Source: Amoebophrya sp. A120 (Eukaryota; Protista; Dinoflagellata). Taken from it: a stretch of DNA of 64,000 nt. The first letter of the stretch is position 1. Each line of letters begins with the position of its first letter. The notes beneath the pieces were generated by a model, which did not search any database, was not told where the DNA came from, and saw only the letters and a list, made by a program, of their open reading frames with translations. Positions 1 to 27,808 of the stretch are shown piece by piece. The stretch spans positions 3,745,420 to 3,809,419 of the forward strand of contig CAJINV010000008.1 in NCBI GenBank assembly GCA_905178155.1. Reading direction: 5' to 3'. Made by a program: the position numbers and the translations under genes.

Positions 1-186
1 CCTGCAGGACCCCCCTATTTCTTGCGAAAAATAATTATTTCAGAATTGGCCATTTTTTGCGGTGAGTATTGGTATAATTACCCCCATAACAAGCCCTACC
101 CCAGACTACCAACATGTAAGAAAAATTTAGAGGGTCAATATTCATCAAGACAAAGCCGGGTGGCTTCTGTTTGGTGCGTGAAGAGA

Positions 187-3100
187 ATGTCCTCACGCCC
201 AACTTATAGGGCGCAACAAGACGAAATCGGTTCCTTGGACGACCTAGACCAGCTAGAGCGTAGCGTCGCAGCGCAGCTGAGCAACCTCGGGCTCAACGAT
301 GCCAGCGCGCTGCTCAGTGAAGCTGACAAGGCGCTGCTCAAGAGCTTGGACCACAGCGCGGAGGCTGCGGCACGAGGACCAGCACATGTTGGAGGTCCAG
401 ACGACGAACTGCACGGTTTGTTGCAAACGGACGACGCCGACCTCGCAGCCCAAGTCGCAGCGCTGAGCGACGAGGAGAACGAGCTGGAAAGGGAACTGCT
501 TGCAGAGATCAATGACGGCAAGGACGAGGTTACTGGTTGTACTGGGCGGGAGATGAACAGCACCAGTGATCATGGGCAGCCAACATCTACTTCGCTACAA
601 CAACGTGCCCCGAGCCCGACGCCGAGCGGGAGCGCCGTCGGCGAGAATATTAAGCAGAGGAACAAGCTCCGCACGACCGAGGGGGAAAAGTTTTCCCAAG
701 ATGTTCTTGCTGGTGAGAATAACAAATCAAGATCTTCTGCTACGCCGTCGAGTAAGAAAGGTGAACGACTGCTCCCGCAAGAAAGCTCCGCCGATGCGGA
801 TCACGACCAGGCTCTGCAGGAGTTACTTGCCGGTGACGACGATGACGACGCCTACGGGGAATTCAGTTTCGCAGAGGTCGAGATGCACGCGTGTTGCGAC
901 AATCTGGAAAGCTTCGACGTGCTCCATTGGTGGCTGGCAGAGCTGAGGAGGAGAAAAGATAAAGAAATAAAGCAAGGAGGAACTTCTACTACAACTAGCT
1001 TTCCTTACGCGCACCTGCTGGACCGGGAGATGCAGGCGCAGGAGATCGAACAGACTGAGCAAAAAATCGCCAGTCTCACTTTTGAGATCCAAAACGGCCT
1101 TCTGCTGAAAGACGACTACGCTGAAAAAGTGAAAAAGGCGATGCAGAAGGACGAGAAGTTGCGAGTCTGGTTTGCCGAACACAACCGAGAAACTGACGCT
1201 GCGATCTGCGCCGAGAGGATCCGGATCGCGAAAGCCGAGTTTGAAGCTGCGGAGCCCGTTGAGCTAGAGGTCCTGCAGAAATTCGAGGCGGAACTCAACC
1301 AGCGCATTCTCGGCTACAAACAGGGCGCCTTTCGCTGGGTCAAGTTTTGCAAGGCATACTGTCAACACGCAGCGCCTTCGACGTCGGTTACTGCTGGCGC
1401 TTCGACGGGGGGCGTCGTGGGGGCCACCAGTAGCAGTCGGATCAACATATCACCAGTAGTGGTGCAAGATGGGTCGTCGTGCGGTGCAAGAACACCTGCG
1501 GGAGCTGCAGCAGCAGCACCACAAGAAGCACGGGCGGTGTACATGAGACACGCAAAGTGGTTGGCGGAGCAAGTGAAAATTTTAGAGGGGTACAGAGACG
1601 AGATCGCGGTCGTTACGGCAGCAGCACAAAAGGGTGGCGCTGGCGCGATAGGTGAAATTGTCCTCGATGAACAAGCAGGCGGCGCGGAGCAGGAAAAAGA
1701 CGACGAGCCTCCCTGTTGTATAGGCCGACGGCAGCTGGAAGACATGCGGAAAAGCCTGCCGCCGACGTTCAACAAGTCTATTCTCATGTACGGGTTGAAA
1801 GGACAGCACGACCAGCATTCGCGGCGGGTGGGGCGTTCTGTTCGTGATGTGCAGGAACTGCAGGCAGAGCCTGTTCCTGCCAGTAAATCTACACGGCCAG
1901 CAACACAGCAGTCATCTTCATCTACCTCTAGCTGTAAAAGAAGTTCTTGTTCGTCTATGGAGGTGCAGCGTCGCGGCGTCGCTTTCTACTGGCGAGACAA
2001 GTTCCGAGAGCAAGAGGAGTTGTTTCGGCAACTTTCCCGAGAAGCTCTCGTTACGGCGAACACGCTCAGTGCCAATTTGCAGCAGTTGGCGAAATTTGAA
2101 TCCAGCAAGGGGGCTTTGTTGTCGGGCGGGGGTCTGACAAACAGACAGAGTGCAGCAGCTCCGGGTGGGGGCGCTGTTCTTGGTGGTCGTGTATCTTCTT
2201 CGGGAGCTGCTGGCATGCCGATTAGCGGGGCCGCTGCAACTTCTACGACAGCTTCTACTTCATCGAGCAATAATCACGTGCTTTCGCAGCAGGAAATCCT
2301 CCTCGACCAGCGGCAGAAGCTGGATCGGCTGAAGCGCGAGGCGGTGCTGTTGCACCAAAAGCGAAAGGAGTTTGCGCAGACGGCTTTGTGGTTCGAAAAA
2401 GCAGCGGAGGATGACGAGCAAGTTGTGATTGATCCAGATGATAGTGGTGCAGCTGCTGTCGTGTCAGACGAAGAAGATCATGACGACGGCGAAATTGTGC
2501 CTTCCACATCGCGACCAATTTTGATAGAAGAAGAGGCAAATGAAAAAGAAAGTTCGTCATCTGTACTAGACATCAAGAAGGCGACATCCAAGTCGAAAGA
2601 TCGACATTCTGCCGCATCACGAATGGGCCCCGTGAGCCTCTCGTCAACGTCGTCGGGAGGTGGAAATGCAACAGGACCACGTCCCCGAGAAGAGCGGAAA
2701 CCTGCATCACCGCGACAGCCACAAACACCGACAAAGATGACAGTACCGTCTTTCCTGCAAGTTTCTACCCTGGCGCACGAGAAGGAAAAAATCAACGCTG
2801 ACATCGAACCCGACCACTTGGAAATTACGCTTTCGCACGACGGTATCAAATGTAAAAATGTCTGGGTCTGGAAGCTTGTGATGCTGGGTGGCGTATCATG
2901 AACAGGCCACAAGTGCTGGCTCAGCATGAAAATAAGCTTTTGAGCTTCTAGGTGTTGCCTATTCTGCATGACAAACTACGTTTGTAAGACTAACCCGTCA
3001 AGGCCACACCGAAATTCCACCTTGCTCGCGGGCTTGGATGGTAAGGGGGTTCTGCCACACATAGCGCCCACTGGCCGTAAATGCGCGTAAGAAATCGATA

Positions 3101-5504
3101 GCGGTTCTGCGGTTGCGGTCGGGTGATAGTTAGGAACTGGATCGGGTATCCACCTAGGGGTATCGGCAGAGGCTAAATCTGTTCTAACGCCCAGGTATTG
3201 GCAGAGGCTAAATCTGTTCTAACGCCAACCCGCCAGGAGTCAAATGGTTACTACTACTACTACTACTTGCATGACAGTAAAATGGGGCTCTTGGGAAACG
3301 TGCATGACAGATTTAAGAGTCATGCCAGACTAGCACGACAGAGCTCGCATTCTTCCAGACCCAGACATTTTTACAGTTGATAGACGGCAAGTCCCGGCCG
3401 TGGTGGGACTGGGAAACGGCCTATTTCAAGCTCGACTTCGGCCTCGGCAAGGAGGACACGGACCAGCGGATTTTGAAGATGGAAGGCAAAACCAACCACT
3501 GGAAGGCCTCGTTTCCGTTCCCAGATTTCGGCCACAAAATTTCTTCATCTTCGACGGCGGCAGCTTCAACAAGTCGTGTGGGCGAAACCAAAGCATCCGC
3601 TGGTGGTGGCGCTTCGTCCTCGAGAAGTAGAGCGATGAACATCGCAAATAGTAAAAACGCGACTCTTGGTAATTCTGCGGTTCCTTCGAGTAAGTTCCAG
3701 CCAGGCGGAAGGTCCTTGACGCAGATGAAAAGTAGCGGCACAAGAACCGCAGGTCCGGCAGGTGGCGGTGCGACAACTGCTGGAACAACGACAGGAGGAA
3801 CAACAGATCAAGATCGTCCACAACATTCCCAAAACTACAGTATCCACTTGCAGCACAAGATTAAGCGCGCCCGCTTCAGCTTCGAGATCTGGCGGCCGCG
3901 GACCCTCGCCTTCGTGATGGGCCACCGCCCGATCGGCCACTGCACGAAGGGACTGAAGCTGTCCAACCTGTTGACGGAATTGGAGACACCAGTTGAGTTC
4001 TGCGTCGTGTCCGCGGAGGCAGACGATCGCACAACCAGCATGAACTTCCGCGTGCAGTTCCGCGTGCGGAGCCCGTTGCAATGCATGAAGTTGGTCGAAG
4101 AAAAAGTGGACTTCTACCACGTAGGCACCAGCTGCTCGTCCGGCGCGGCTTTGTCTTGTTCAGCAGGAGGGGGTGGGGGGAGTTCTATGTTCCACATGAA
4201 ATTGTTCCCCCCCAGTCTGAAGGAGTTCCCTCCACCCATGAACATTAGCGTCGGGGCGGTTCCCGTGGGCAGCAGGTCAAGTAGTAGCTCAATCGCAGCG
4301 ATGAAAACCGCGGCGGTGGTTGGGAACACCAGTGAAGATTTGGACGAAAGCATCGTCGTTGTCAAGGAGCGCAGGAGGACATCGAGCATTGAAAATGTTA
4401 ATATCCCAGAGGTGGACCACCAGCAGTTTGAAGATCTTCGAGGTTGTGCTGCTGGCCCTGCTGCAGCAGTTGGAACAGGTGGGGGGCCTTCATCTCGTGC
4501 TCCTACAATTTCTACAAGCGACAAAAGTTGTACTAGAACTTCTCCGCATGTAGAAGACGACGTACGGAAATCTCACCCGCAAGGAGGTGTTGGCGGTGTT
4601 GGTGCTAGTAGTGGTGTTGACGACCAGCAATCCACTGCGGCATCCAGTACATCCTCGAAAGAAATAGCGACAGCGCCAGGAGGAGAACATCTACAGCACG
4701 ATGTCGATCCAGCGAAGGAGAAAACCACAACTGGCGATCAACGCGACGTCGAAAGAACCTCTTCTACAAGTGCGGCGGATGTCATCGTAAACAAGCCCCT
4801 AGTGTACCCCTTGCCGCCGCTGCCACTGGCAAACAAAGCCGCGTTTGAGAGATTGGTAACAGAAAACGGGAATTACAGCCGTTTCTGGTCCGCACAGTGG
4901 TGCAATACGGTGGAAGGCTTGGACTTCATGATCACACTCGGCAGCAGCTCTTCCGGCGGTATTGGTAGTTCATCTTTGCCACAGCCTTTGTTGACTCAAA
5001 TCCGGAACGACAAGCCGGTGTACGAGCAGAAAAAACACAGGCTGGAGCAAGCGATTACAAACGCAGAGGTGGACTTTGACGACTACCTGTCGCAGGTAAA
5101 ACAGGACATGCAGACGGACGCGCGGCTGGCCATGTTCTACCGTGACGAAAAAAACGACGCGGTGGCCTGCAAAATCGTGGTATCTACTGCAAATATGTAC
5201 TGGAGTCTGGGAGGTTGTCTTGAAGCATGCATCGAGATTGGTGTCGCACATCACAATCACTACAAACGGAACTCGCCGTGCCAGATATGCCTTGCGCAGT
5301 CACTCGCACCGTAATTTTTTTTGCATAAATTACGTGCGGCGCTGCGTTTTGGAAATTTTGATTTTCCAAGAACTTTACATGAGCATGACAAATGACAGCT
5401 GCTGTAATAGGCTCCTCCAGGCCCAGATCGATGTTTGCAGTTGATAAGTGTTTGACCGCCACAAATGTCTCAAGCAGGCGCTTGCAAATGCGGAAGAGGA
5501 GTAG
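187..5504 (+). CDS. CC2D1/Lgd-like coiled-coil and C2-domain protein (3 exons: ~187-2843, 3388-5179, 5451-5504)
   Basis: ORFs 22-2901 and 3377-5314 join in frame once the 2844-3382 element plus one TSD is removed. The C2-like segment 'KINADIEPDHLEITL...IKRARFSFEIWRPR...LKLSNLLTELE...FRVQFRVRSPL' and the helical C-terminus 'DDYLSQVKQDMQTDARLAMFYRDEKND-AVACKIVFDRHKCLKQAL' resemble CC2D1A/Lgd (recognised by eye). ATG at 187 is assumed to be the start. Confidence 0.65.
2844..3382. mobile_element. TIR introner (family A, subfamily 1) carrying a nested insertion
   Basis: TIR TATCAAATGTAAAAATGTCTGGGTCTGGAAG / CTTCCAGACCCAGACATTTTTACAGTTGATA; TSD GACGG at 2839-2843 and 3383-3387; homologous to the reverse complement of 11675-11930. 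Confidence 0.92.
2984..3266 (+). mobile_element. ~283-bp retroposon-like insertion (SINE or 5'-truncated LINE) with (TAC)6 tail
   Basis: Absent from the paralogous introner 11675-11930 (539 vs 256 bp); ends in (TAC)6 at 3249-3266; contains a 35-bp tandem duplication at 3159-3226. Confidence 0.6.
5181..5446. mobile_element. Degenerate TIR introner
   Basis: Left TATCTACTGCAAATATG...CTGGGAGG vs right reverse complement TATCAACTGCAAACATCG...CTGGAGG; flanks CGTGG/AGTGT; removing 271 nt gives the plausible C-terminus KIV(F/V)DRHKCLKQALANAEEE*. Confidence 0.7.
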
Positions 5505-6438
5505 TAGCGAGGAGAAGTTAAGACTGAGCTGAATCGGAGGCAGACATAGAAGATTTCGCCAAAGTATTCACGAGGCTACGCAGCTAGAAGAGCTAGGCTT
5601 CGCTGTGACATTTGAAGTCCGCGACCGCAAAAACAGACTGTAGGACACTTTCCATGTCTAAAGACGACTCTGTACTGTATGTCAGTAAGTACTCATACAT
5701 AATTTCCCGCCGTGAATCAAAGAACTAGAGAAGCACAAGAAGCGACACAATTGATTGACATCATCCCAGATGTTAGAGACGACAGATATGAAGATAAACA
5801 AAGTTTTTTATCGCGATCAAAATAGTGATCACAGCCGTGCGTGGGAACGGAGATGAGCTACTACTTCAGTGTAGTACTTCATCTTCAGATTTTGGGATCA
5901 GGGACGACGTAGTGACCCGTTGTTCTTACAAAGACAATGCAGCAAGACCTTTATCGTATGTCGTTGTCGGTCGTCACCTCTGGTTCTCTGGTGCGCAATA
6001 ATAACGTAATATGAGGATTATCGTGGGCCGGGGCGAAGCGGACGCCATCGGGATTGGGGTGTGGACAGCTAATTCATTGATCGTGAGGATCTGCTGTAGC
6101 TTTCCGTACTAGAATAGATTGATTACTCGTCGTTTGAGTTTAGCTCTTAGTCTTAGTCGTACACGCAAACGCAATCCAAGTCTTCGTATCGCAGGAGGCT
6201 GGTGCATTCAAATTTTGACTCCATAGGTGACTTCCTTACGCCGGTGGCAGGCTCTTGTGTCCTCAGGTGTTTCCTTGCTACTTTTCCGGATCGAGCCTAT
6301 TGTTTTTCGAAAAAAAGGAGAAATCAAGATCATCATCATCAAGATATAACTGATTCCAAAATGAAAACGAAAGCCGGCGACGTCGAGTAGAACAAGAACG
6401 GCCGCCGGGACGAGCTGCTAGCTCCACGACCTGCAGCA

Positions 6439-7629
6439 ATGTCGGATGTTGGACATCAAACTACGTCTAAAACTGGCGCAGGTGCATTCTTGCAGCCCAC
6501 AGCACTGCAAGTAGAAGTCGCAGGAGGGGAGAAACATGCAGCTGCTCGTCGCGGCCCCTTTTTGTCGCCGGCGACACCTGCTGTATCTTGTTCGCCACCA
6601 TCTTCGCAACTACCGGCGCGTCGGAAGAGATTACTGATTTTCACCTGGGAACAGAGCTTGCACCACGCTCCAGAAGACTTCTTCTGGACCTTCGTGCCGC
6701 AGTATCCAAGAAAAAAACATTGTAGGTGTAACTTTTTTGGAGGAACAGCATTACAAATCTGTCTGGCATGGCAGCAGAAACCTGTCATGCGCAGATAGTA
6801 CGTGAAAACTCCCTTTAATGGACCCTGCAATGCATGCCAGGCATGACAGACGCAATCATCTTGCATGTTGCGCATCACAAATTTACACTAACAGCGTTTT
6901 TTTCTTGCATACGCAGTACACAAAGGACGAAGCGTTGTCAGTGCACCGGATTCACCACGTGCTCGCCCGCCCGCTGTTGATGCCCCGAGAGTTTCGTCTA
7001 CGAAGACCAACTATCAAAAGCAAAAATGTCTGGGTCTGGAAGAGTCATGCTGTTTTTGCATGACGCAGAAGGTCTGGCATGGAAGCTCTAGCGTCACAGG
7101 TAATATCGAGAAGCAAGCTTCCGCAATGCCGAATCCGCATGACAAATTCCCCATTTTGGTGACAGAAAGTGGGGAGCTTTTGCTACCTATGCATGAGAGA
7201 TCTTTCTGTGTTCTGAAATGCGCATCACAAGTTTGTATTCTTCCAGACCGGGCATTTTTGCATTTGATACCAACCGAAGATGAACACAGCACCATCGTCG
7301 CCATGCGGAAAGTGTATACGCGCGCGGTGCAAGCGAAGATGCATTTGGAAGACCTTGCGCAAGAAGAAGCATCGGGATCAAGTGGCCGTTGTACTAGCGC
7401 AACAGACACCCCAGCCGTTCCTGGTTCTGGACGTCAAGATCGTCCTAGAAGTTTTTATCTCCCTGGCTGTCTCCGGTGCGCAGAGCCAACCGAGGGAATT
7501 TGCGAGACGTGCAAAAAGCCGAGCCGTCCGGTGTGCTACGAGTGTCAGAAGGAATGCAGAAGTTGCGGGGAAGTTGAGAAGCTAGAGGACGGGAGGTTCA
7601 AAAAATGCGGTGCGAAAGATGATCGCTGA
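6439..7629 (+). CDS. ~237-aa protein with C-terminal Cys-rich (zinc-finger-like) region; 3 exons (6439-6702, 6917-7011, 7275-7629)
   Basis: Three ORF pieces in different frames join as FVPQ|YTKDEA...RRPT|EDEH after removing two element+TSD units; CxxC repeats CLRC/CETC/CYEC/CRSC. Confidence 0.7.
6703..6911. mobile_element. TIR introner
   Basis: TATCCAAGAAAAAAACATTGTAGGTGTAA / TTACACTAACAGCGTTTTTTTCTTGCATA; TSD CGCAG at 6698-6702 and 6912-6916. Confidence 0.9.
7012..7269. mobile_element. TIR introner (family A, subfamily 2)
   Basis: TIR TATCAAAAGCAAAAATGTCTGGGTCTGGAAGA; TSD CCAAC at 7007-7011 and 7270-7274; near full-length similarity to 61385-61637. Confidence 0.92.
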
Positions 7630-9593
7630 ACAAATTACTACACAAGCAATTTCCACCCTCTAGTGCGCACACAACGTCGTGGAGGTAGAACGAGAAGTCT
7701 TGAGCTAGAACTTGATAAAAAGAGGAAGGCCTCCACTTGAGTATATCTTCGTGCTGCTGCTGTTGCATCACCATGCCCACGATGGAAATTGTGATCCCCT
7801 TCTATGCTGTTGCTGCTCTAACAAGCACGCAGACACATGCCTTATAATGGCATGTAATGAAATATTAATCTCGTCGTACTGAACAACGTCACATCTGTCA
7901 TCTTTTTATCGATGAGCCGTGCACATATATTGGACGACGTCTGCGTCGAGAGGGAATGAAAAAAAGCGCAGCGGCCGCAGATCATAATCATTCTGTCGTC
8001 CGTGTCGTGATTGTTTCACCTCAAAGGACGTGGAAACGATGTTCCTGTATTTTCGCATGCACGCGCTGTTTATTTGAACGGACGAAACGGATCTCTACGA
8101 GTGCGGAGCTAGCTGTATTTACAAGCGCGTCGGTTTTTTTTATTGCGATTATTATCCAACAGAAACAAAGTCAAAGTCAAACTGCTTGCTTTTGTCACCT
8201 TGTTCCGACTTTTAGTTTTGCAGACAAAAATCCAGTGGACTGACGAGTGCGATTATTGACGCGATGTGTTGTGGACAAGCATCAGATGGTTGAAGTATGA
8301 ACTTGAGGAGTTTTGCTGCGTGCTTGTGCTTCGAGTTTCATTATCTGAGAAGTTTTTTTCTGCTCATTTTCTGATGTGGTATATCCGCTGTTGGAACTTC
8401 TACACATAAAAATAAACCGATTATTCGTAAGCAGCGCAACGGCAACCTCACATTACCTTCCGAGAATGTGATGACTTTATTAATTTCACAACCACAACCA
8501 CAATCACAATGAATCACATCCATTACTTACTCCGCCCTCCATTACAGGTCTCTTCGTTTTTCTTTATCCCACCGTCGCTCAGCTTCGGCTTTTGTCTTCA
8601 CATTACGATTACACTTTGAACCAGCGCGCCCAAGCGGGCCGCGAGTTTGTGCGTACCTAATAACGTAAATACCAAGACGAGCGTTTTTTTTTCGATATTA
8701 CATGAAGATTGTAGTGCCGTGACGATCATCGGCATCGTATCGAAAATATCCAGAACAGCGCTTCTGTTACAACAGTTTTTGTTCCCGAAGATAAAATTTT
8801 CCTTTAAACGAAAGCGATCTCGATGCGTCGGTAACGTCGCTGGGTACCACTCCCTACAGCTTTTCGTAAATGCATGATAAATTAATTTGATCAACGATGA
8901 AATACATCAAAGTTCTTCGAGTTCATTGTCGATAAAAAGTAGTAAGTATATCGAGGCGTCATTTTTGCCGTAACACGGTTCCTGTACCTGTTTCAGTTTT
9001 CTTTATCTCCATACCGCATAAGTAGTAAAAAAGACCTCGGAATAAAACTAACAGTATTATGGTAGGTACATGAGGTGTGCCTGTGCGCCAGAACGAGTAA
9101 TCATGACGGAGAGTAGTAGCAATGGAAAATAAAGAAGTACATCAAGAAGTTCTCAATAAAAGTAGTAGTTGTAATCTTGAAGTTGTGTGTCTACCTTTTT
9201 CATACACATTTTGTCTTTGATAGTAGCAGTAATAAAAACAAGCATGACCACTTACATCTCATGAAGGTCACGCCTTATCAGAAGAATTTCTCAAAAATCC
9301 CAACAACAAAAAAATTATAGCAAGCAAGTTTTCAACATTCGGTATTTCGTTGCCACTCGCACTCTCTGGTATCAAGAAAATCCAAGAACATCCCTGTTGA
9401 CTTTCTAAAAGTCTAAAGAACCTCCCTATTCTCACCCTTCAAAATATACGACACCTGAAATCGGCATCCACCGTAGTTCTCCGCGCGCTGTCCCCAATTT
9501 TTACCTACGACTCTCTCGAAAAGAGTCCGTGACGACGCTCACCTGCGAAGAACCCGGATCAAGTTCGGCAAGAAGAAGGAACTACTGCAAGAA

Positions 9594-12500
9594 ATGGCTA
9601 TCACTGTGGAGCAATCTACTTCCAACAAGTCCGACGCCGGTGGCGTCGACAAGATGAAGCAGTTGCGCGGAGGAGCTGCAGCTCCTGCGGGTGCTGGAGC
9701 GGGTGGTACTGGGATTGAAAATACCCTGATCAACAAAACTTCTAATCCCACCACCTCCACCCGAGGCAACGCGGCCACCACGACGACCAGCAACATGATG
9801 GGTCCGGCGGAGCTGAGCAGCAACAAACTGAAGAAGTTTAAGCTGTACATCCCCTCGGTCTCGTTCATCGAACTCTGCTCCTGCTTCTTCATCGTCGGCT
9901 TGTATGGGAAGTTGCTCGTGTACTTTTTCCACGAGAAGGACGGCGTCGCGAGCTCCAGCCAGTGGCATTTGTTCCTGCACAACTCCCTAGCGGTGTTGGT
10001 GTACGGCTGCTTCTGGCGGTTTCTGCAACAGCGCTGGATGAAGTGGAAGGCGTATTGCGCGAAAAATCCGGAGACCGCCACGGTGCTCAAGTTTCTGCTC
10101 GGCGGGAACGTGGATCTGTTCTCGGGGATCAGTCGCAATGGCCGGAGTTCGACGTCGTCCCGTGGGACGATCATGTCGCAGGAGCAGGAAGGGCTGGAGG
10201 CGAACGACTCCGGGCGTATTTCTGCCGAAATGGGCAGTTCTGGCACGACCATGAAGGGCAAGCAGATGAATGACGAGAAGGAGATTAGTGGACTACTACA
10301 CCAACAAGCCAACATCCCGACCAACACCAATCTGAAGCTGCAGCATGACAAAAAACAGGGCTTTGCCTACGACCTGTCGTACGACGACACCGGCGCGGAC
10401 AGCACCGGGACGGGCGAAGACTCCAGCCCCTGCGCCGGCAATTCCCCCCCGTGGGACAAGAAGACCGGGTTTTTTGGCACCAAAACTGGCGGTGAAAATA
10501 ACCGCACGACCGAGGATTCGTCTCCGGATTTGAAGAAGAGGACCAACAGTGCTGACGGTAGTTGCAAGGATAATTCATCTTCCAAGATCACGAACAGCAC
10601 GACGACGAACAAGCCGGTTTTTCCGCTCGCGAAGCCTAGTTCGGACGACATCAAGCGTTTGGTGAATTTGTCAGAGATGACGTACGACACGGTGGTGGAC
10701 CCGGCCAGCGAAGGGATCCGCGTCGGGTGGGGGCACGCGCTGATCGTGTGTCTCTCCTACTGGTACCGGGCCTATTTCATGCACTGCACCGTGGAGCGCA
10801 TCTGCACCACGCACCTCTTTCGCGACAACGACCTGATCCACGCCTTCGTGTCCCCGCTGGCCGGCCGCTTGGTCGCGATGGTGGGCGAGCAGGTGTTCAT
10901 GTGGAACGCGGTCATCCCCTGCGTCTGCTGGGGCCCCTACAAACGGTTCAAGTACTACATGCTGTGCGGGCTGGTCGCGTTCGCGGAGCAGATCTCCAAC
11001 ATTGGAGTCATCAAGCGCCACTACGGCTTTTTCTTGCTCGAAAACTCCACCTGGACCATCGTCTTCACGGTCATCTTCTGGCAGATCTTCAAGAAGCGCT
11101 TCTTCATCTGCCGCTTGTCCTCGGCCCCGAAAGAGGTCGCGATCGCGGAGGAAGAGGAAGAAAAGTTGATGAAGAACCACGGTTATCCTGTGCAAAAGTA
11201 TCGTACTCGTAGTAATCGCGATCATGCATGACAAATATCCCTTTTATAGGTAAATCAGCATTACAAATTCCATTTCTCTTCTTGAAAAAACTTGTGATGC
11301 AATTTATACTAGTACGATACTTTTGCAATGCATAACGGTGCGTTCGAAGAAGATTTGACGTCGGCCGGGGACCTGCGCAAGCGTGGTTCCTCCGCTGCTG
11401 GTGGTATTTCCTCGTCCACGACCTCGTCCTCGTCTAAGCTGCCCAAGGCGGGGGCCTATGAACTGCAAAAGTATCGTACTCGTATAAATGCATTAATACA
11501 ACTTTTTTCAGCATGGCAAATAAAATTTGTAATGCTGATTTGCCTTGGCAAAGAAATTTGTAATGCAAGACCTGCATTTATACGAGTACGATACTTTTGC
11601 ACAGCATAGGGCAATGCTGCAGGCGAAGAAACTGGCCGAGAACCTCCGCACCAAGATCGTGAACTTCCGCAAGCTATCAAATGCAAAAATGTCTGGGTCT
11701 GGAAGAATGCATGTTTGTAATGCTTGTCTGGCATGAGTCTTAAATCTGTCATGCACGTTACCCAAGAGCCCCGCTTTTCTGTCATGCAGAGACGCAGTTT
11801 GTCATGCAGAACAGGCAACACCTAGGTAGAAGCTCCGAGACTTGTCATGCGGAGCCAGCACTTGTGGCCTCTTCATGATACGCCGCCCAGCATGACAAGT
11901 TTCCAGACCCAGACATACTTGCAATGCATACAAGCCGCGCACGCTGCGCATGCTGGTCTTGACCCGGTTCGTCGCGTTGCTGGCGGTGGGTCTGTTCATC
12001 GGGTACGAGCTGTACTTCGACCTGCCCATGTACTACTCGCTCTGGGACTCCACCTACCTGAAGCAGGACTACGACCTGCAGTTCTACCCGCAGGGGCTGA
12101 AGCACTCGCTGCAGTGCCACACCATGGTGGAGAACACCTCCAACGAGCACTGGCGCCCGGTGATGCTCTGGCAGGCGGCCAACTACACCATGGTTCCGCT
12201 GGCCATGGTGCTGCTGTCCTCCCTGACCTACGACCGCAAGCGGGTCTTCATGGGCCTGGACCGCCGCGTCTTTTTCGACGTGTCGGAGAAGATAGGAAAG
12301 TGCACAATTCCCCTGCTTCCCTCTTCTTTGTAAATGTTGTACTTATCTATGCACCACGGAAAAAATAGAAGTGTAACTGTTCGTGTAGAAGTGTCGCGGC
12401 CAAGATCAAGAATTCGGGTTATGTTGCAGGAGCTGGATTTTAGAACTAGAAGTGTTATGTCTATCATCCAGGCCGCCGCTGCTGGACCAGGTCATGTAAG

Positions 12501-12667
12501 CTGTGCCTAGAGGGAAAGGATGGCTTCGGCTTTTAGTTTTATTTGCAGGACAAATGAGGGGGAGGCGGAGTAGTTGTGCACTCTCATAAAGGGCGGGTTG
12601 GATCTCGGTCATCACGTCTAAGGAAAATGCCGCCGGGAACGGAGGATACCTGCCGCGGGGGCAGTAA
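9594..12667 (+). CDS. Multi-pass membrane protein of an uncharacterised family; exons ~9594-11183, 11340-11456, 11614-11674, 11936-12292 and probably 12594-12667
   Basis: Frames join after removing element+5 nt (NHG|AFEE, AGA|MLQA, FRK|PRTL). Hydrophobic segments carry the motifs 'YRA..VERIC..SP..GR.VA..GE', 'AEQ.S...LENSTW', 'DLPMY' and 'W..VMLW'. The last exon is uncertain; an unspliced stop lies at 12333. Confidence 0.7.
11184..11334. mobile_element. TIR introner (family B)
   Basis: TIR TATCCTGTGCAAAAGTATCGTACTCGTA / TACTAGTACGATACTTTTGCAATGCATA; TSD ACGGT/ACGGT. Confidence 0.92.
11457..11608. mobile_element. TIR introner (family B, opposite orientation to 11184-11334)
   Basis: ~36-bp TIR TATGAACTGCAAAAGTATCGTACTCGTATAAATGCA; TSD GGGCC/GGGCA. 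Confidence 0.9.
11675..11930. mobile_element. TIR introner (family A subfamily 1, reverse orientation)
   Basis: TIR as in 2844-3382; TSD CAAGC/CAAGC; the internal sequence is the reverse complement of 2844-3382 minus its insert. Confidence 0.92.
12293..12588. mobile_element. Degenerate TIR introner
   Basis: Left TAGGAAAGTGCACAATTCCCCTGCTTCCCTC vs right reverse complement TATGAGAGTGCACAACTACTCCGCCTCCCCCTC; flanks GAAGA/AAGGG. Confidence 0.65.
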
Positions 12668-13179
12668 ATTCGGTGGATGTAGTGGACAGGGTGTACTGGA
12701 AGATTTCTTGGAGAAGACGAAATCAATCGTAGCGTAGTTTTCAACTACGCAGTTGAGAAACGATTGCAGTACTGTTGCAGCACTTTCTTTGGGGAACGAA
12801 AAATATTTGCGGTAGGCACTGGAGTTTTTCAGGAAATTCTCTTGATGTCCTCTAGTGGCTCATGAAAGAATATCAACGACAGATAGACGACAAAAAAAAC
12901 AGAATTTTCAAACCTCGAGTCTAGATGTAGATTCGTTTTTTACGCACTTTTAGTTTTACATGCAGCGACAATTTGAATAATAAATACGTATTGCTATGAT
13001 CGCAATCAATTTCAATATGTGGATGGCTTCTCAAATGCAAGAGCGGATGTACGTTCACTGAAATCGCACCAGCTTGTTGTTCAGTAACAGGAAAAGCGAT
13101 TTCAACATCAACACCGAAAGCGAAATGAAATACGACCACTTAGTACGTAGTACAGCAACGACTTAGCGACAAGTAGTTT

Positions 13180-13281
13180 CACGCACGACCGATAATATGT
13201 CACAGTAGGTAAAAAAATTCCCCGATAATATTTTGTGATCCCCCACGCACGACCGATAATATTTTGTGATCCCCCACGCAC
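13180..13281 (+). repeat. 31-bp tandem repeat at the 5' end of the RT element
   Basis: CCGATAATATTTTGTGATCCCCCACGCACGA at 13222-13252 and 13253-13281, plus a partial copy at 13180-13198. Confidence 0.85.
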
Positions 13282-16200
13282 CAGTCCGACCCGAAGTCCT
13301 GGAAGCAAGGGAGCGGCTGCCGACACTAGACGACCGAACAGGAGGCGGCGGAAGCTTTGGAGGAAGCGGAAAGCTCCCGTTCTTCGGTGCCTACAACAAG
13401 TACGTCGAACACATAAGCCAGCCGCGGGGCGCACTGGACACCGGCCCCGCCGGGAACCGTTTGCAGGATGCGGAGGGCGCCGGCATTGGCCACGCTGCTC
13501 ACACCCACGAAGCGCTCGACGCGCAAGCGCAGTTGGCGGACGACGCCGCAACTGAGGCTTCAGTAGCTCGACGGTGGGGGGATAAGAAGTCCAGCACGAG
13601 CGGCGCTGCGCGGCGAAGGGCGAAGCGGCTAAAGCGACAAGCAGGAGACTGCGCGGCACCGGCGCACCAGGGAGCGTGGCCTTCAGTCGGTAAGACGCTC
13701 AGGACGGCGGCGGCGGTAGTAGCCTCCTGCGGCGCTGCCATGATCGGGGCGATCGTCCCTTGGCCAACAGCACGGCCGCCAGCACAGCAGGATGACGTGT
13801 TGACACTCTCGCCCACCAACGAGACCGTCGCGCCGCCGAGAACTACCAGAATGCTGTTCCAGAAGGCGAAGTGGTCTGTCTATCGGGAGGAGATGACGAA
13901 GTACCTCCAGGCGCACCCAGTAACCCAAAAGACAACACTAGCGGACCGGGCGGAGCTATTCAGATCAGCAGTTGTCGAGGCGTCAAAGAAAGCGATTCCC
14001 CGGGCCACCGCAAAGCCAAGGAGACGAGCAGAAAAACAGAAGCAGCAGACAGAACTTGAACTAGCCATCGCCATGCGAAACTCTTGCAAGCGCATGACGA
14101 TCGTCGCGAGGACAGCCGAGGGCCGCCAGTACTGGTCCGACCAGACAAGACAAGCAACAAAGCGCATAGTAGCAGCGGAGAACGACCGCAAGCGGAAGGC
14201 GTTCCGGCGGGAGGCAGAGCGAGCCCAGCAAACAACCGCGGGGGCGTTCCGTTTGTTGCGGCAGCTCGAGGCAGGAGGGCGACCCGTTCGAGCCGAAGCG
14301 AAGGTCTTGACCCACCGAGGGAAGCAGCACAGCCAAGGCCTGGCAACGGTCTTTGCAGAGCACTACGGAAGCCTCCCGCAGCTACCGCAGCAAGAGGTAG
14401 ACAGCGCAAGGACGGAGGCGGAGGAAGTGTTCCGGGCGGAGATACCAAAAGACGCAGGCGTCACGTTCTCCCTAGACGAAGTACAGGCGGCCATCTCGTC
14501 CCAGGCAGGCTCGTCGGCGGCAGGGCCGGACGGAGTACAGGGGGCGCAGGTGAAAAACCTGCCGACGGAAGCCAAAAAGTTTCTAGCCAATTTCTTCAGC
14601 GAGTGCGCGACGACGGGGGTCTGCCCCAAAGCGTATAAACGGGAAAAGCTGAAGCCGCTCCTCAAGGCAGGCAAGCCCAACCACCTGCCGGGCAGCTACC
14701 GCCCCGTTGCCCTCACGTCCGTGGTGTGCAAAATCCTGGAGCGCTGCGTGCAGCAAAGGGCGAGGCAGCTCTTCGTCTCCTCCGGCCTCCCAAGCAGGAG
14801 CCTCAGACAGTACGGAGACAGCAAAGGGCGAGGCGCGGCAGAGCATGTCGCAACCCTGGCGGCCCGTGCGCAGCAGACCTTCCGAAACGGGCGCAAAAGG
14901 GCCACGGTCCTCCTGGACCTCAGTACTGCTTTCGACCGCCTAGAGGCGAACAAGTTTGCCGCCGAGGCGCTCCGATCCCGCTTTGTACTCCCCCCGCAGC
15001 AGCGCGTCCAGTTTGTCCTGCTGGTCCGGTGGATGAGAAACTTCTGCCTCGATCGTTTCCGAGTAGTAGAATACGACGGCGGCAGAACGGAAGCCCATGC
15101 GGTCCGGCAAGGGGTGCCGCAGGGCACAGTCTGCGGCCCGACGATATGGTGTTTCTTTTTCAACGCAGTTGCCCGCTGTGTGGAAGACCTGGCGCCGGGG
15201 TTGGATGTGTTCCTGTACATGGACGACGTAGCCCTGTCCCTGGACTACATCGACCCAAAACAAGCCCAGGCGATCCTGCAGACCGCCTTGAACCGCATTG
15301 CTGCTTGGTGCTCCTCCTCCAACATGGAGCTTTCCCCCGGCAAGTGTTCGGTCATAATCCTCCAGCGAATGTACGTCGGGGAGACGCAGGAGTTGCCGCT
15401 GCACATCAACGGCGTTCCACTTCCATACGACGCTGCGCCGAAGTTTTTAGGCGTTTCGCTGGATAGGGAGATGAAGTTCACGACCCACGCACAAAAAACC
15501 GTCGCAAAAGCAAGACGCCGTATGGCCGCAGTGCGGGCATTGAGCAGGAACAGTTGGACGCGGGGGGCCGACATTCGGGTGATGTATCGGCTCTTCGTCG
15601 AGTCGCTCTTCCGCTACGGCTTGGGCACGTACTTCCCAGCGCTTCCACAGAAGGAAAAGGCCGAAATGGAGCAAATCCAGCAGCAGGCGGCGCGCCTGAT
15701 CCTCGGGGCCCCGAGAACAGCAAACGGGGAGGCTGTGGTGTTTGAAGCAGGCCTGCAGTCTCTGAGCGACTTGACAACCGTGGAGGCAGCGGCCTTAGTC
15801 GGCCGAGCAATGTCGCGACCACAAGGAGACCCCCTGCGAACCGAGGTGGAAAGGGGCGCGCAAGTAGTCGATTGGGTGGATCGGGCGTTCGAGGCCATCA
15901 CCGGGTCCGCTCTCCCAGGGGGGACAGAAGTACAGGTCGAGCACGGGGGCTGTCTGCCGCAGGACGGGATCAGCTCCGTGCATTGCGCGATCGAGGCCGG
16001 AAAGCTGCGCTTTGATCCCTATGGCGTCCCGGACGTCGAGCTGCGGCGCGCGACGCAGGCCGCGGACATCGCGATCTACACGGACGGCTCGGTGCGGGAA
16101 TTTTGCTACTCCGCCGGCATCGTGGTAGACGGGGGCGAAAACCTCTACGAAGAGTACGCCTGGCCATGCGGCTGCTTTGGTGACTCCTTCGACGCGGAGC

Positions 16201-19200
16201 GACAGGCTTTGTTGGGTTCCTTCATGTTGATGCAGGACCGAAGCGAGTTTGCGGGGACGCGTGTCATCCTGGTGACCGACTCCCAGTCGAACCTGGAGGC
16301 CCTTTTGAATCCCCGCATACGCGATGAGTCCGATGTTGGTCTCTATAATGCACTGGCGGGAGCAGTCGAGAACGTCCAGCATTTGTGGCTGGTCTTTACG
16401 AAATCCCACCGGAACGTCGTCGCAGGGAACGAGGTGGCCGACAAGTTGGCCTCGCTAGTAACCAAGCACAGCAGCAACTTCAACGATACGGGCGCCCGCG
16501 TGACACATCGACAAGTGAAACAAGAAGTGCAGCGATCAGTCAAAAACGCAACCCGCAAGTGCCTCCAAGGGCGGGGGGAGAAAGCGCCAGACGCGGAGGG
16601 AGGTTCCAAAACCCTCAGCACCCTGCTAGGGGTGTCGGAATTCAAGAAGAACCCAGTGGATTCCGTCTGCGCTACACGGGAAGACGAGATCTTGTACAAC
16701 TGCGCCCGCTTGGGTTTGGCCTGCTCGGATAGCACGGGACGGGACTACGCTTGTCCCTTCTGCAGTAGGAAGGGTGTTCGAGGAGAAGAGGCCTCCACCT
16801 GGCACCTCGTCGCGGGTTGCCCAGAGCTGGAGAGCCTTCGGATTCCGCCAGAGGATGCCTGCGAAGAAGTAAACGGACCGTTCGTGTGGGGTCCGCATTT
16901 GCTTCAAGACGACCCAGCCTGGGGGGTCGAGTACCTGGCCTGCGTCCGCGATCTCCTGAAGGAGCCGTACGAAGAAGAAGACTGCGGGGAGGACTGTGAT
17001 GACGACGACGAGGCAGACGAGAGAAGCATTGCGGCGCCGGACGAAACTGCAGATGACGGGTGGCAAGGCGGCGGCGAACTCGAGCAGGACGCAGATCCGG
17101 AGATGTTGTGGGCAGCCGCAGGCGACTACGTCGGGGTGCCGGAGCGGGAGCGGAGCCATGCGGTCGTTGTCCCGGGGGGACGTTCGAGAGGCTGTTGGAG
17201 CCTCGCTGCCCTAACCGCAGCAGGAGAAGCACTTGGTTGGACGGGTCCGGGGATTCGTCGTCCAGGCTGCAGCGTCTCCGTGGGGAACCTCGTACACCTG
17301 CCGTCCACCAGCCGAACAGCGGATGTTGGTGTACGCGCGACCGACCTCGCGCAACAGCCCTGGAACAGCAGCCACGACCACAAATTCCGACTACAACTAG
17401 CAGCATCTGCAGCAGCGAGAAAGATCAGCGTTTGCAAAAAAGTAGCGCCAGGACGTCCCCCACCAACCCCGCGCACCCACACAGCCGGCCCAGAAGGGGG
17501 GTGGGGGCGTCCGGCACGCAGGAGGCTGGACACCTCCCCGCCGCCGAGCCGACCCATCCATTACGACCTCCACGCTCCTCTCCACGATCTATTCATCACG
17601 ACCTGCCGCCTGTCGCCAGTTCCCGCCAACCCCACGTTCCTAACGGCCCCACCTCCGGAGCCCAGCAACAACCGCACGCAAGGGCGGGAAGCTGCTGGTG
17701 GAAGCTCGGCAACGGCAGTGATCTTACGACGGTATGGTGTCGATTTCGGGGGGAGCGTAGAGACGGCAGAAGCAAACCGAACCGGGACGCAGCAGCTACA
17801 GGACCAGCATACCGTGCTAAGAGCAAAGCAGCAGAAGGAGCCCCCCACGCGACTGCCGGGCGCCAACACCAACCAGTCCCGTTCCCCGGAGCCCCAGACC
17901 AGCCGCACACGAGCACAGGAAGCCGGACACGGAAGCCGGGGCGCGGGGAGTCGCGCGCGGGTGCGGTCCTGTCGCTTCGGCGCAACGGGAGTGCTCCTAC
18001 GGCAGTATGGTGTTGATTGCAGACGGGAAGCAGGGACGCCAGGTGCAGACCAGTCAGGGACGCAGCAACGCAGGGGCCCGCATACCGTGCTAAGAGCAAA
18101 GCGGGGAGAAGAGCCCCCCACGCGAACGCCGGGCGCTAACAACAGCCAGCCGACGCAACAGCAGCGCCAGCAGACAACCCGGAACACGGGCGACACAGCT
18201 GCCGCGACACCTCTTCTGCTCATAACCGGTTGCGGCACTCCGGGCCGCGGAACGAGTTTTGGCCGCATCACCTGGACATCGGAGCGCGAGGCTCTGGGAA
18301 CGACAACTGAGTCGGGAGGTGGACGACGCCATGAGGTGGACCCAAAAACTACCGCTGCGCTACGGGAACTCGACCACACCAAGCAGAGCGATGACCAAGC
18401 GACAGGCGGCGCCCAGTTTGTACGGGGCAACAAAAACCATCCACCTGCGCCACGGCTCGTCATCACCGGCAAACCGGCGCACATCTTCGACTTCTCTTTG
18501 GCGCCAGGCGGCAGCAGCGACGACCACAAGTTCCGCCTAGCAGCATCCTCAGCAGCGAGAAACGTCAGCGTTTGCGAAAAAGCAGCGCCAGGACGTCCCC
18601 CACCAACCCCGCGCACCCACACAGCCGTCCCAGATGGGGGGTGGGGGCGTCCGGCACGGTATTCTAGTACTTTGCTGCTATGTGATGTTGTTAGTTTATC
18701 TCCGCGTGCGATTTGCTTGGTCTCTCATGCTCATTTCCCTCCGGTGTTTCCCTGTCCGAACTTCTCAAAACAGCATGGGCGCAGGAGGATTGACGCCGGT
18801 TGCAGCCCCAATTTCCCTCAGTACCTGCCGCTCCGCCCCGTCCACTATACGTTCCCCGCGACCCGACCTACGAAGCTCTCCTCCGACCTCCCACAAGCAC
18901 ACGACGCTGGAGACGGAAGCTGGAGTTCGAGGGATTTCGCTCGGCCGCCTCCACGGTCCTGTTGCATCGCCGAGACGGGAGTGATCTTACGACGGTATGG
19001 CGTTGCTTTCGAACGGAACGGAGGGACAGCAGAAGCAAACCGAACCGGGACACAACAGGTGGAGGACCGCCATACCGTGCTAAGAGCAAAGCAGCGGAAG
19101 GAGCCCCCCACGCGACTGCCGGGCGCCAACACCAACCAGCCGACGCAGCAGCAGCGCCACCAGACAACCGGGAGCACGGGCGACACTGCCACCGCGAGGG

Positions 19201-20075
19201 AAAAAGCAGCGCCGGGACGTTCCCCGCCCACCTCGCGCGACCATACCAGCCACCGCCTGGGCAGGTGGCGGGGGCGTCCGGCATGGACTTGGGGTCTTCT
19301 TTTCCGCTTCTCGCCCGGGCCCACGTGCACTAGCCAGAGCCTTCACGTCCCGCGCCGCTCGCTCTACCACGATATCGCGCGAGCCTTCCCGACCCGGACC
19401 TGGTGGACCCCGAGGCCGATCGGGTTTCAGCGTCCAACTGCGAACGACCAGCAACGGTGGTTCCTGCGGGCCGTCCAGTTCGGGCGCCTCGCCCTTCCTG
19501 GTGGAAAACAACTTTTCCGTAACGATACCGGCGCCGGCGTCCCCCACCTGTTGATAAGGAGAGGGGAGGCGCGACCCAGGTGGGGGCGCCGGAACAGGTA
19601 TAAAAGTGTTGTTTTGAGCAGACGATGGACTGGTGCTGGTGCTTCTTCGTTTGCTTTCTCCTGCCGCGTGGTGCTGTTCCCCCAACACGACCTTCAGGTA
19701 GCCCACCGCTCGTCGCTGTGTTCCTCACGTACTAAACAGAACCACCGGTCCGGCCTGATCCGCTTGCACGTCGACGTCGCTGACCGAACTCGCTCGACCC
19801 GGACCTGGTGTAGCCGCGAACTGGCTACTGCAATTGCTCTAGGCGGACCGAACCCCCCCGGTGCCCCTGTCCTGCTCGGGTGGAAATGCGGGAGGGGGCA
19901 CCGGAGCAGGTATTATGTGTTTGTCCGGATGTCGTGCTCCTTCGTCCTGCATGATCCACATGCCGTTGTCCTGCGTTCCCACGACCACAAACAGGTGGTC
20001 CACCGATGGTGCCCGGAGTCAGGCCGACGGCCGCCGGCGGATTTTTCCGCTAAACAGCGGCTGAAAAAATGCTAA
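13266..20075 (+). mobile_element. Non-LTR retrotransposon (I/Ingi-group-like) ORF: reverse transcriptase + RNase H + Cys/His motif + long repetitive extension
   Basis: RT motifs SAAGPDGV, YRPVALTSVVCKILER, LLDLSTAFD, GVPQGTVCGP, YMDD (~15217), FLGVSLD; RNase H IYTDGS (~16074), SFDAERQAL, VTDSQS, SH..GNEVADKLA; CPFC..HLVAGC (~16750-16820). No N-terminal APE endonuclease was recognised. Confidence 0.92.
17366..19290 (+). repeat. Interspersed structured repeat modules (A x3, B x3) in the 3' part of the RT element
   Basis: Module A at ~17366-17520, ~18511-18658 and ~19198-19283; module B at ~17718-17877, ~17985-18200 and ~18975-19190; each module contains an internal inverted repeat. Confidence 0.85.
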
Positions 20076-23700: not shown

Positions 23701-24982
23701 GAGGAGGTCGATCGGATGATGATAATGACGCCGCAGACGTGGCCCTACTTGGAATACTACGAAGACATGGACGGACGGGTCGCGGATCTCATCCGGCTGC
23801 ACCGCGACGACGCCCTGGGCGTGGTAGGGTCCATCCTGCTGCTGCGGAAATACGCTGATGACGACGAAGGTCTGCCGGTAGGTTGTCGCGGCCTTTCGGA
23901 TCAATTTTGTTTCGTCCCAGCCGTTCATTCTCTCGACCGAATTGCTGGCCCGCGAGGGCAATGACGGAAGTTTTCCAACCCGGAAAACCATGCTTCGCAA
24001 GACCGGGCTGTTCTTCAACACAACGAAACTGGACGGGGAGATATTTGTTGTGCCGGAGGAAGAAATCGAAGTCCGTGGGCCGGCTAGTTTGATAGTAGCG
24101 TGCAGATTCAACTACACGGACATTGCGAGGTCTGGCTTCGCGAAGTTATGTCCTGGGGCGGGGATCCGGAGAAAAAAAAAACCGCCTGGCGCAGCACAGT
24201 TCAAACGCCTGAACAGCCCTGCGATCAACAACTACCAAAACAAAAAACGCGACTTGGGCCGCGTAACAACGGTGGACGAGCTGAGCAAGTACGCCGACGA
24301 CGAACTGCTTGAACGGCTTGGCAGCTGCCTGGCAGACCTGAAAACCGATCGCGAGAAGTACAAGCAACTGGCGGGACAGGGGGGAGACCAGCTGCTCGCG
24401 CGAGATATGTCGATTAAGCTGAAGGGGGGGAAGTTCAATCTGCTGAACAGGGGGCAGACATTACGCTCTCGGATTCTAGGCTTCGAGACAGTTGGCGTGC
24501 ATTTTTCCAAGTTTGTCATGCGGTTTTCCTTGCGCAATGCACGCGCATCTTTTGGCAGCCTAGATTCTGCCCCGGGATAACCGACCGAGAAGTTCCAGCT
24601 GGACCCGCGTCCAGCAATTTGCCCGTTCTTGAAGGAGCTCGGCCTCCAGCCTGTGAAGGACTTCAGTCTCTCCGTGTGGAAGACAGAGGAGCGCGCAATG
24701 ACGCACGCGCTAGCAGTGCGGCGGTTTTACCGAGCGGTCTTGCGGCTCGGTGCACACAGGGGTGGTGAAAACGATCAGCCGGAGCACACAGCGGCATCGC
24801 GTTTGGCCCTCGAGGAGGACACGATAATGGGTCAAATTCGACGCGACAGGAAGTTTCTCGAAGACCAGCAGGAACTCCACACCCACAACCGCGAGCAGTT
24901 TTTCGACAAGTTGGAACTAATAGCCCGCACCTGTTTCTTCAGACTTCCAATCAGCCCGGATCTTGCTGCCCTCCTGCACTAG
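20731..24982 (+). CDS. Putative DDE transposase with CxxH motif (hAT/MULE/P/Kolobok-type fold), multi-exon
   Basis: The inferred spliced product has candidate catalytic D (HIQFDGTP, 21221), D (YGADGGS, ~21743), CxxH (DTC|VIHTMH, formed across the 21866-21986 intron) and E (SVFIREKLH, 23004). A canonical 43-nt intron lies at 23878-23920. The junctions near 23175-23265 and 24447-24584 are uncertain. Confidence 0.55.
20855..20970. mobile_element. TIR introner in the transposase gene
   Basis: TATGCCATTGACACCATGAGAAAAAGCA / TGCTTTTTCTCATTTTGACAATTGCATA; TSD not preserved; removing element+5 joins LILPHS|CRTNVG in frame. Confidence 0.75.
21514..21727. mobile_element. Strongly degenerate TIR intron
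   Basis: Left TATGCACATGACAAATGCCAGTTTTG vs right reverse complement ACTGCAAAATAAAAATAAGCCAGCTTTG; four TGTCATGC motifs inside; element+5 = 219 nt keeps frame. Confidence 0.5.
21866..21981. mobile_element. TIR introner splitting the CxxH motif
   Basis: TATCAGAAAAAAAACGTCTCTGCCCTTCTTGAAAG / CTTTCAAGAAGGGCAAATACTTTTTTTTTGCATA; removing 21866-21986 yields TGT|GTG ATC CAC (C-V-I-H). Confidence 0.8.
24447..24579. mobile_element. Inverted-repeat intron, boundaries uncertain
   Basis: Core IR CTAGGCTTCGAGACAGTTGGCGTGCATT / AATGCACGCGCATCTTTTGGCAGCCTAG; right end ...GGGATA; contains TGTCATGC and covers the in-frame stop at 24578-24580. Confidence 0.45.
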
Positions 24983-27663: not shown

Positions 27664-27808
27664 TGGTTTTTTTGAAGTTCCCGTAAGACTGCCTGCACCA
27701 TGAAAAACGTTTCCTCTTCCCCTTTAGAAATTGGGTCGCACAAAGCACAAGATACTGGGTGCGTGCGATAGCATACGGCGCCTAGATAGTTGCAAAAAAG
27801 CACGCAAG

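What the first reader, a model, noticed from the sequence alone, without database searches (positions are those of the whole stretch)
11184..11930. Introners function in either orientation
Seen in sequence: family B copies 11184-11334 and 11457-11608 lie 122 bp apart in the same + strand gene in opposite orientations. The internal AAATCAGCATTACAAATT of the first is reverse-complemented in the second. Family A copy 11675-11930 is the reverse complement of 2844-3382, and both sit in + strand genes. All obey the +5 rule. Inference: a polar branch point or polypyrimidine tract is unlikely to be needed. Recognition looks symmetric (stem plus TAT ends), reminiscent of tRNA/IRE1-type RNA splicing or of TA-bounded ciliate IES excision at the DNA level.
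Basis: partly seen in the sequence, partly recalled or inferred. Interest (0 to 1): 0.72.

Follow-up and report, generated by a model that had tools for sequence, protein, structure and literature searches.

The report
Two-way introners, read one way
These are the already published hairpin-ended transposon introns of the plankton parasite Amoebophrya: two related copies facing opposite ways in one gene are both missing from a likely-RNA contig but present in DNA, and the mirror-image ends are likely read differently at the start and end of the intron, which points to a testable splicing rule.

Summary
Observation confirmed. The two B copies are 78.6% identical on opposite strands, and the A copies are also inverted. 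All are TAT...ATA hairpin elements with a 5-bp target duplication, the class published for Amoebophrya A120 (PMC7789003). A same-strain RNA-like contig lacks B1, B2, A-11675 and a fourth intron to the base, while DNA contigs enter the elements at flank depth, so DNA excision is not supported. In related loci all 10 families with four or more host-oriented copies occur both ways (minority 76 of 197, 82 expected), with no GT-AG, pyrimidine or duplication bias. The symmetric-recognition inference is only half right. Among 216 copies the first T of the 5' arm never changed while its pairing partner changed 5 times, and the third position shows the reverse (8 vs 2; p=0.007). The likely mechanism is a relaxed, U1-less spliceosome that reads one end as N-UAU and the other as a branch A, guided by the hairpin; this is unproven. 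This scan reported the fixed register and strand-specific bases on other DNA before; the orientation tally is added here.

The parts
11184..11334 (+). Family B introner, copy B1 (TAT...ATA, terminal arms pair); removed with 5 flanking nt
   Evidence: (fold z -6.8)
11457..11608 (-). Family B introner, copy B2, inverted relative to B1; removed with 5 flanking nt; the X5 contig keeps the fifth base of the downstream repeat copy
   Evidence: (fold z -11.8)
11675..11930 (-). Family A introner, inverted relative to 2844-3382; removed with 5 flanking nt
2844..3382 (+). Family A introner with a unique internal insert (about 2984-3267); junction not shown explicitly, and a canonical GT-AG (+2) reading is not excluded
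11179..11183 (.). Upstream 5-bp target duplication of B1 (copy at 11335-11339); likewise 11452-11456/11609-11613, 11670-11674/11931-11935, 2839-2843/3383-3387
9594..12667 (+). Host gene, 732 aa after removal of four introns; two exon pieces scanned had no Pfam hit; keeping B1, B2 or A truncates it at 545, 619 or 609 aa; the 5 listed indels of strain X5 inside the CDS are all 3 nt
   Evidence: end coordinate computed from the 732-aa length
12293..12588 (.). Older element in the same gene (5' end TAG, decayed duplication); the contig junction falls after position 3 or 4 of the duplication (position 3 would read GA..AG)
5181..5446 (.). Element with imperfect duplication; explicit X2 junction removes element+5 and excludes cuts flush with either element end

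Best explanation
These are non-autonomous inverted-repeat DNA transposons (Amoebophrya A120-type introners) that sit in exons in either orientation and are missing, with one 5-base duplication, from likely-RNA contigs, and they are likely removed by a relaxed spliceosome that reads the same palindromic end one way at the intron start and another way at its end. Shown: both orientations are absent from contigs and present in DNA; orientation is near random; junction bases are unbiased; the cut lies inside the duplication where this can be seen. Statistical: the constraint on the terminal triplets is polar with respect to the transcript. Inferred: (1) the terminal hairpin brings the ends together and stands in for U1 and AG recognition; (2) the cut is one base before TAT and four after ATA, so the intron begins N-U-A-U like the genome's common GTAT donor without its G; (3) the first A of the terminal ATA, seven bases before the 3' cut, would be the branch nucleotide. 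Because the ends mirror each other, each orientation presents both signals, so the interior direction does not matter.
For: RNA-like contigs lack B1, B2 and A-11675 exactly, in one unbroken 3003-nt contig. DNA contigs hold them at flank depth. Both orientations occur in 10 of 10 families: B 9:16, the family of 2844/11675 15:21, minority 76 of 197 against 82 expected (95% range 73-89). Duplication positions show no base bias, and only 19 of 231 copies offer GT/GC/GA..AG in any +5 register. With ends located without requiring TAT, 18 of 216 coding copies have one changed end base: 5' arm positions 1/2/3 = 0/1/8, 3' arm = 5/2/2; Fisher position 1 vs 3 p=0.007. The two better-kept bases are not pairing partners, so pairing alone does not explain this. 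One of the two changes of the 3' A is in a copy that has a GT-AG register. Only registers 3 and 4 fit all five junctions examined. All nine predominant A120 non-canonical ends in Table S4 of PMC7789003 have T as second base, as register 4 predicts. Predicted GT-AG introns favour GTAT: 37 of 83 GTA donors against 23% background, p 2e-5. The paper reports a nearly complete spliceosome, with U2, U4, U5 and U6 found in A120 but not U1.
Against: No lariat, branch point or excised intron was observed. The polarity test rests on 18 events, was run after reading AI notes that mention strand-specific bases, and pools families. One copy with an uncertain host strand (L002:1359) would be a counterexample and raise p to 0.035. 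The 3' A changed in one copy with no canonical escape (L067:2399). Register 3 versus 4 is not resolved by my data. The one junction that narrows it (12293) can also be read as GA..AG. The second read lay gave no junctions, and a coding-score test on duplication mismatches was uninformative. Table S4 may reflect aligner preference. Some predicted GTAT donors may be old introners, which makes that comparison partly circular. X2 is only guessed to be RNA; X5 is another strain that may lack the elements. A branch A seven bases from the end, inside a very stable stem, would need unwinding. The related loci come from one metagenome assembly of unestablished species identity.
Confidence: 0.55

Rival explanations
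1. A separate, non-spliceosomal RNA endonuclease/ligase system binds the terminal stem and cuts at fixed distances from it, convergent with euglenid nonconventional introns.
For: Stable terminal stems (z -6.8 and -11.8); no junction sequence bias; no U1 found. Euglena introns use a paired motif with fixed, unequal 3-nt and 5-nt spacers (PMC12501133) and are reported as circles. A protein binding a stem asymmetrically could also give polar base constraints.
Against: The kept bases match U+2 of a donor and an adenosine near the 3' end, which is what spliceosomal chemistry uses (established knowledge, recalled). N-TAT resembles the genome's own GTAT donors. No candidate enzyme could be searched for, because no genome is held.
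Confidence: 0.3
2. Spliceosomal removal using a polar internal branch motif (GCAT.AC) that each element carries on both strands.
For: In the four family-A subfamilies the motif lies about 40-50 nt from the 3' end in both orientations.
Against: B2 has no sense copy yet is removed. Family 5 has it in 8 of 8 copies of one orientation and 2 of 11 of the other. In 180 predicted GT-AG introns it is not enriched before the acceptor: GCATGAC has 3 sense hits there against 10 antisense near the donor. More likely a transposase-binding subterminal motif (inference).
Confidence: 0.08
3. Programmed DNA-level excision like ciliate IES removal, producing an element-free expressed genome.
For: Ends begin and finish with TA; removal is exact and independent of orientation.
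Against: DNA-like run X6 is flat at 44-59x outside elements. Its contigs run unbroken from 7220 into B1 (43.5x), between B1 and B2 (41.2x) and out of A (44.2x). No terminal TA is left behind, unlike Paramecium IESs (recalled). Caveat: one DNA run, an unknown life stage, and contigs drop rare variants.
Confidence: 0.04
4. Cryptic canonical splice sites are used, or the host is a pseudogene.
For: 24 of 231 copies have G on both sides, allowing a frame-preserving GT-AG removal of element+2; this includes 2844-3382.
Against: For B1, B2 and A-11675 the contigs show +5 removal and no +5 register gives a canonical pair. The host has a 732-aa frame, is covered by RNA-like contigs, and the other strain's listed indels in the CDS are all 3 nt.
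Confidence: 0.03

Closest known systems
Introner elements of Amoebophrya sp. A120 (Farhat et al. 2021, PMC7789003; read: abstract, sections 10-12 and 16, passages, supplement part 3 and passages; figures not visible)
   Same: Inverted repeats starting TAT, then seven looser bases, then three or more A; direct repeats at the borders (5 bp in the Fig. S19 legend); many families; non-GT-AG; RNA-supported.
   Different: The text searched says nothing on element orientation relative to the host and calls splice sites variable relative to the hairpin. Random orientation, the restricted register and the polar end constraint are added here.
Micromonas/Aureococcus introners (Huff et al. 2016; paper not held, seen only through one passage of review PMC10228655 and listings)
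   Same: DNA-transposon introns reported to insert in both orientations.
   Different: They carry or co-opt canonical splice sites; here no canonical pair is available in 212 of 231 copies.
Euglenid nonconventional introns (Nomura et al. 2025, PMC12501133: abstract, section 8, passages; review PMC11282704: section 6, passages)
   Same: Paired terminal motif, no GT-AG, fixed and unequal spacers between motif and cut, likely MITE origin.
   Different: Different motif (CDG/CHG against TAT/ATA), spacers 3 and 5-6 against 1-2 and 3-4, a purine preferred at the next exon start (no bias here), circular excised RNA reported there and unknown here.
Fritillaria non-GT/AG introns (PMC13326754 passages; PMC11282704 section 6)
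   Same: Transposon-derived introns with inverted repeats and target duplications, attributed to a modified U2-type spliceosome.
   Different: Those have preferred end dinucleotides and U1 is kept; here the end dinucleotides are free.
Ciliate IESs, tRNA introns, IRE1 introns (recalled, no call)
   Same: Exact removal without GT-AG; TA at the ends (IES); stem-guided cutting (tRNA, IRE1).
   Different: Elements stay in DNA and no TA is left; there is no bulge-helix-bulge or conserved loop sequence at the junctions.

Membership tests
Amoebophrya A120 introner elements | Terminal inverted repeat starting TAT, seven looser bases, three or more A | tested here: met
Amoebophrya A120 introner elements | 3-5 nt direct repeat at the exon/intron borders | tested here: met
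   With ends anchored on internal arm positions, 162 of 199 coding copies match 5/5 and 22 match 4/5
Amoebophrya A120 introner elements | Repeated in families | tested here: met
Amoebophrya A120 introner elements | Removed from transcripts without GT-AG | tested here: met
   (contigs; X2 is guessed to be RNA, X5 is on record as RNA but is another strain)
Amoebophrya A120 introner elements | Host is Amoebophrya A120 | tested here: inconclusive
   Inferred from the match to the published end motif; run organisms are coded and no genome is held
Ciliate IES | Excised from DNA | tested here: not met
   run X6 (one run, stage unknown)
Ciliate IES | One terminal TA left at the junction (feature recalled) | tested here: not met
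tRNA/IRE1-type introns | Bulge-helix-bulge or conserved loop motif at both cuts (feature recalled) | tested here: not met
   No base bias within 12 nt of exon side of either end in 231 copies; junctions lie in a direct repeat, mostly unpaired
tRNA/IRE1-type introns | Cyclic-phosphate ends and RtcB-type ligation | not testable with these tools
   needs RNA end chemistry and the proteome
U2-type spliceosomal intron | GT/GC...AG ends | tested here: not met
   19 of 231 possible in any +5 register
U2-type spliceosomal intron | U at +2 and a branch adenosine | tested here: inconclusive
   First T unchanged in 216 of 216, first A of ATA in 214 of 216; positions depend on the unresolved register
U2-type spliceosomal intron | Lariat product | not testable with these tools
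   no raw reads of this strain; X10 matched element ends only
Euglenid nonconventional intron | N3CDG...CHGN5-6|R signature | tested here: not met
   Ends are TAT...ATA with no purine bias after the junction

The most novel reading that the evidence does not exclude
Amoebophrya runs a second, spliceosome-independent mRNA splicing system that recognises any TAT...ATA-closed hairpin in either orientation, cuts at fixed offsets in arbitrary exon sequence and religates. Any such transposon insertion would then be a seamless intron, and a programmable scarless RNA cassette.
Probability: 0.25. Interest if true: 0.85.

Novelty: already known. Interest (0 to 1): 0.45.

Why it matters
How tens of thousands of non-GT-AG introns in Amoebophrya are removed has been open since 2021. 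Orientation independence removes internal polar signals from consideration and confines the code to the ends. The polar constraint on two unpaired-partner bases gives a sharp prediction: a lariat at the first A of the terminal ATA and a required U at +2. It also explains the invasion, since every exonic insertion, at any sequence and in either direction, restores the mRNA exactly.

Tried and rejected
No whole genome is held and the records behind the loci are not searchable, so no proteome search for RtcB, endonucleases, transposases or U2/U6 was possible. The second read lay (27700-43600; X1, X2, X4, X5) was meant to fix the register at three mismatched duplications but gave no joints, because that gene was barely covered. 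X10 raw reads matched only element ends. The coding-score and GC/AT tests on 41 duplication mismatches showed no pattern. Open-frame length alone does not single out +5 in the host gene: other offsets gave longer frames, so the contigs carry that claim. GCATGAC as a general branch point was rejected. No 5-7-mer was strand-biased after allowing for 281-442 tests. One family showed 4:14 orientation (p=0.03, one of ten tests), treated as chance. The 11 viral-contig hits to a family B motif have no second arm and were dropped. Rfam found nothing in the window. Dropped rows: 83 of 314 elements, and 67 of 283 in the end-change set, lacked a confident host strand. The GT-AG intron set is model-predicted and noisy.

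Full report
OBSERVATION. B1 (11184-11334) and B2 (11457-11608) align over their full length on opposite strands at 78.6% identity, and the named 18-mer occurs once on each strand. A-11675 matches 2844-3382 on the opposite strand in two pieces, separated by a unique insert of about 284 bp in the longer copy. All four begin TAT, end ATA, have paired arms and are flanked by a 5-bp direct repeat, imperfect at one base for B2.

WHAT IT IS. The end motif (TAT, seven looser bases, a run of A) and the short direct repeat are those published for the introner elements of Amoebophrya sp. A120 (PMC7789003). The organism is inferred from that match. The paper counts 65% non-canonical introns in A120, finds nearly all spliceosomal proteins and U2, U4, U5 and U6 but no U1, and leaves the mechanism open.

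REMOVAL FROM RNA, NOT DNA. Four runs were laid on 1-13000. X5, a metatranscriptome of a strain a few percent different, skips 11179-11334, 11452-11608, 11670-11930 and 12291-12591, each element plus 5 nt; that strain might lack the elements. X2, guessed to be RNA and covering genes but not 8247-9114, has one 3003-nt contig whose two listed pieces match without differences. It holds 538 nt between 11178 and 12592, exactly the three exons. An unbroken contig implies no abundant retained form of either B copy, though contigs drop rare variants. X2 also removes 5181, 6703 and 7012 by +5. X6 is flat at 44-59x outside elements, as DNA would be, and its contigs run into and between the elements at 41-44x, so excision from DNA is not seen. 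For 2844-3382 the junction is not displayed; the contig edge at 3383 fits +5 but also a canonical +2 removal. The spliced host frame is 732 aa, and keeping any one element truncates it.

ORIENTATION AT SCALE. Together with the window these gave 314 distinct elements, with none in reversed or complemented controls. Host strand came from a codon model that was right in 99% of 111 held-out windows at the margin used; 231 of 314 passed. Orientation came from element interiors only, with no inconsistent edge within families. All 10 families with four or more called copies occur both ways: 15:21, 22:14, 16:14, 9:16 (B), 4:14, 8:11, 9:5, 7:4, 2:2, 3:1. The minority share, 76 of 197, is within the 50:50 range (73-89); same-locus family sets were mixed in 9 cases and uniform in 12. 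Duplications have no base bias. Only 19 of 231 allow GT/GC/GA..AG and 28 allow neither a donor nor an AG. Pyrimidine content at the 3' end is the same either way round (0.54 vs 0.55), and no internal k-mer is strand-biased after correction.

RECOGNITION IS NOT SYMMETRIC. Five junctions were tested against the six possible registers. The element at 5181 allows 1-4, B2 allows 0-4 and 12293 allows 3-4, so both cuts lie outside the hairpin, and a single rule would put them 1-2 nt before TAT and 3-4 nt after ATA. The 12293 case can also be read as GA..AG, and unequal offsets alone would not exclude a dimeric nuclease. More telling is the end-triplet test, run after AI notes of this scan mentioned strand-specific bases. 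Ends were located without requiring TAT. Among 216 coding copies 18 had one change: 5' arm positions 1/2/3 = 0/1/8, 3' arm 5/2/2, Fisher p=0.007 for position 1 against 3. Insertion direction is random, so such asymmetry should come from the transcript. The kept bases, the first T and the first A of ATA, are not partners in the stem. Of four weakly called copies, three fit this pattern or touch only position 2 when the strand is judged from neighbours; L002:1359 is ambiguous and would raise p to 0.035. With a 1+4 cut, which Table S4 of the paper favours (second base T in all nine listed A120 ends), these bases are intron +2 and -7. Predicted GT-AG introns favour GTAT donors (37 of 83), so N-TAT looks like the host's donor without its G.

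MECHANISM. Most likely (0.55) a U1-less spliceosome is brought to the ends by the hairpin and reads N-UAU as donor and the ATA adenosine as branch, with the 3' cut set by distance. Removal, orientation independence and the lack of junction bias are shown; polarity is statistical; the machinery is inferred. A separate stem-measuring nuclease/ligase, as suggested for Euglena, remains open (0.3). An internal two-way branch motif is unlikely: B2 lacks a sense copy and the motif is not polar in predicted GT-AG introns. DNA excision and cryptic sites are unlikely.

NOVELTY. The elements are already published, and insertion in both orientations is reported for canonical-site introners (review passage; the primary paper was not held). 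I found no statement on orientation for Amoebophrya introners. Searches: (0 papers; 4; 1; 6, of which three were searched for the word), plus the supplement text. Supplementary figures S19-S25 and Roy et al. 2023 could not be seen and may bear on this. Other windows of this scan already reported the fixed register and the strand-specific bases (unreviewed AI notes).

VERDICT. A real feature of a known system. Interest 0.45.

Noticed in passing
window 13260-20075 (+): 2271-aa open frame with reverse transcriptase (PF00078, E 1e-23) and a weak RNase H match: an apparently intact LINE-like element.
   Followed up: partly
window 52972-55884 (+): 970-aa open frame that looks by eye like a diverged RT/RNase H retroelement but has no Pfam hit.
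   Followed up: partly
window 34135: An X4 contig leaves the window here into letters that match, by eye, the region just upstream of the LINE frame (about 13175-13205): possible insertion polymorphism or chimera.
   Followed up: no
window 33950-36990: AT-rich stretch with no frame of 300 aa, covered by RNA-like contigs in X1, X2 and X4: possible long non-coding RNA or long UTR.
   Followed up: no
window 2984-3267: Unique insert inside the family A element, with a 35-bp tandem duplication and a (CTA)n tail; no other copy in the window or loci. Possibly a retroposed piece.
   Followed up: partly
window 22990-25270 and 25374-27700: Near-identical 2.3-kb copies on either side of an N gap, seen by eye; tandem duplication or assembly artefact.
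   Followed up: no
window 20855-20970, 21866-21981, 27934-28143, 29561-29887, 29954-30074: Older TAT...ATA elements with decayed duplications whose +5 removal keeps a frame open; 20855, 21866 and 29954 would distinguish register 3 from 4 if reads covered them.
   Followed up: partly
window 24472-24567 and 26862-26957: Short inverted-repeat element without TAT...ATA ends inside an apparent coding region.
   Followed up: no
window 47642-49220: 1.6-kb segment bounded by 48-nt, 92% complementary inverted repeats; possible larger DNA transposon.
   Followed up: no
window 2844-2874, run X10: 71-86 raw RNA reads carry a family A end joined to a flank not in the window: at least one copy stays in RNA (or DNA) of that run.
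   Followed up: no
L002:2873-3123: Introner whose duplication offers a GT-AG register and whose 3' ATA has decayed: possible conversion to a canonical intron.
   Followed up: partly
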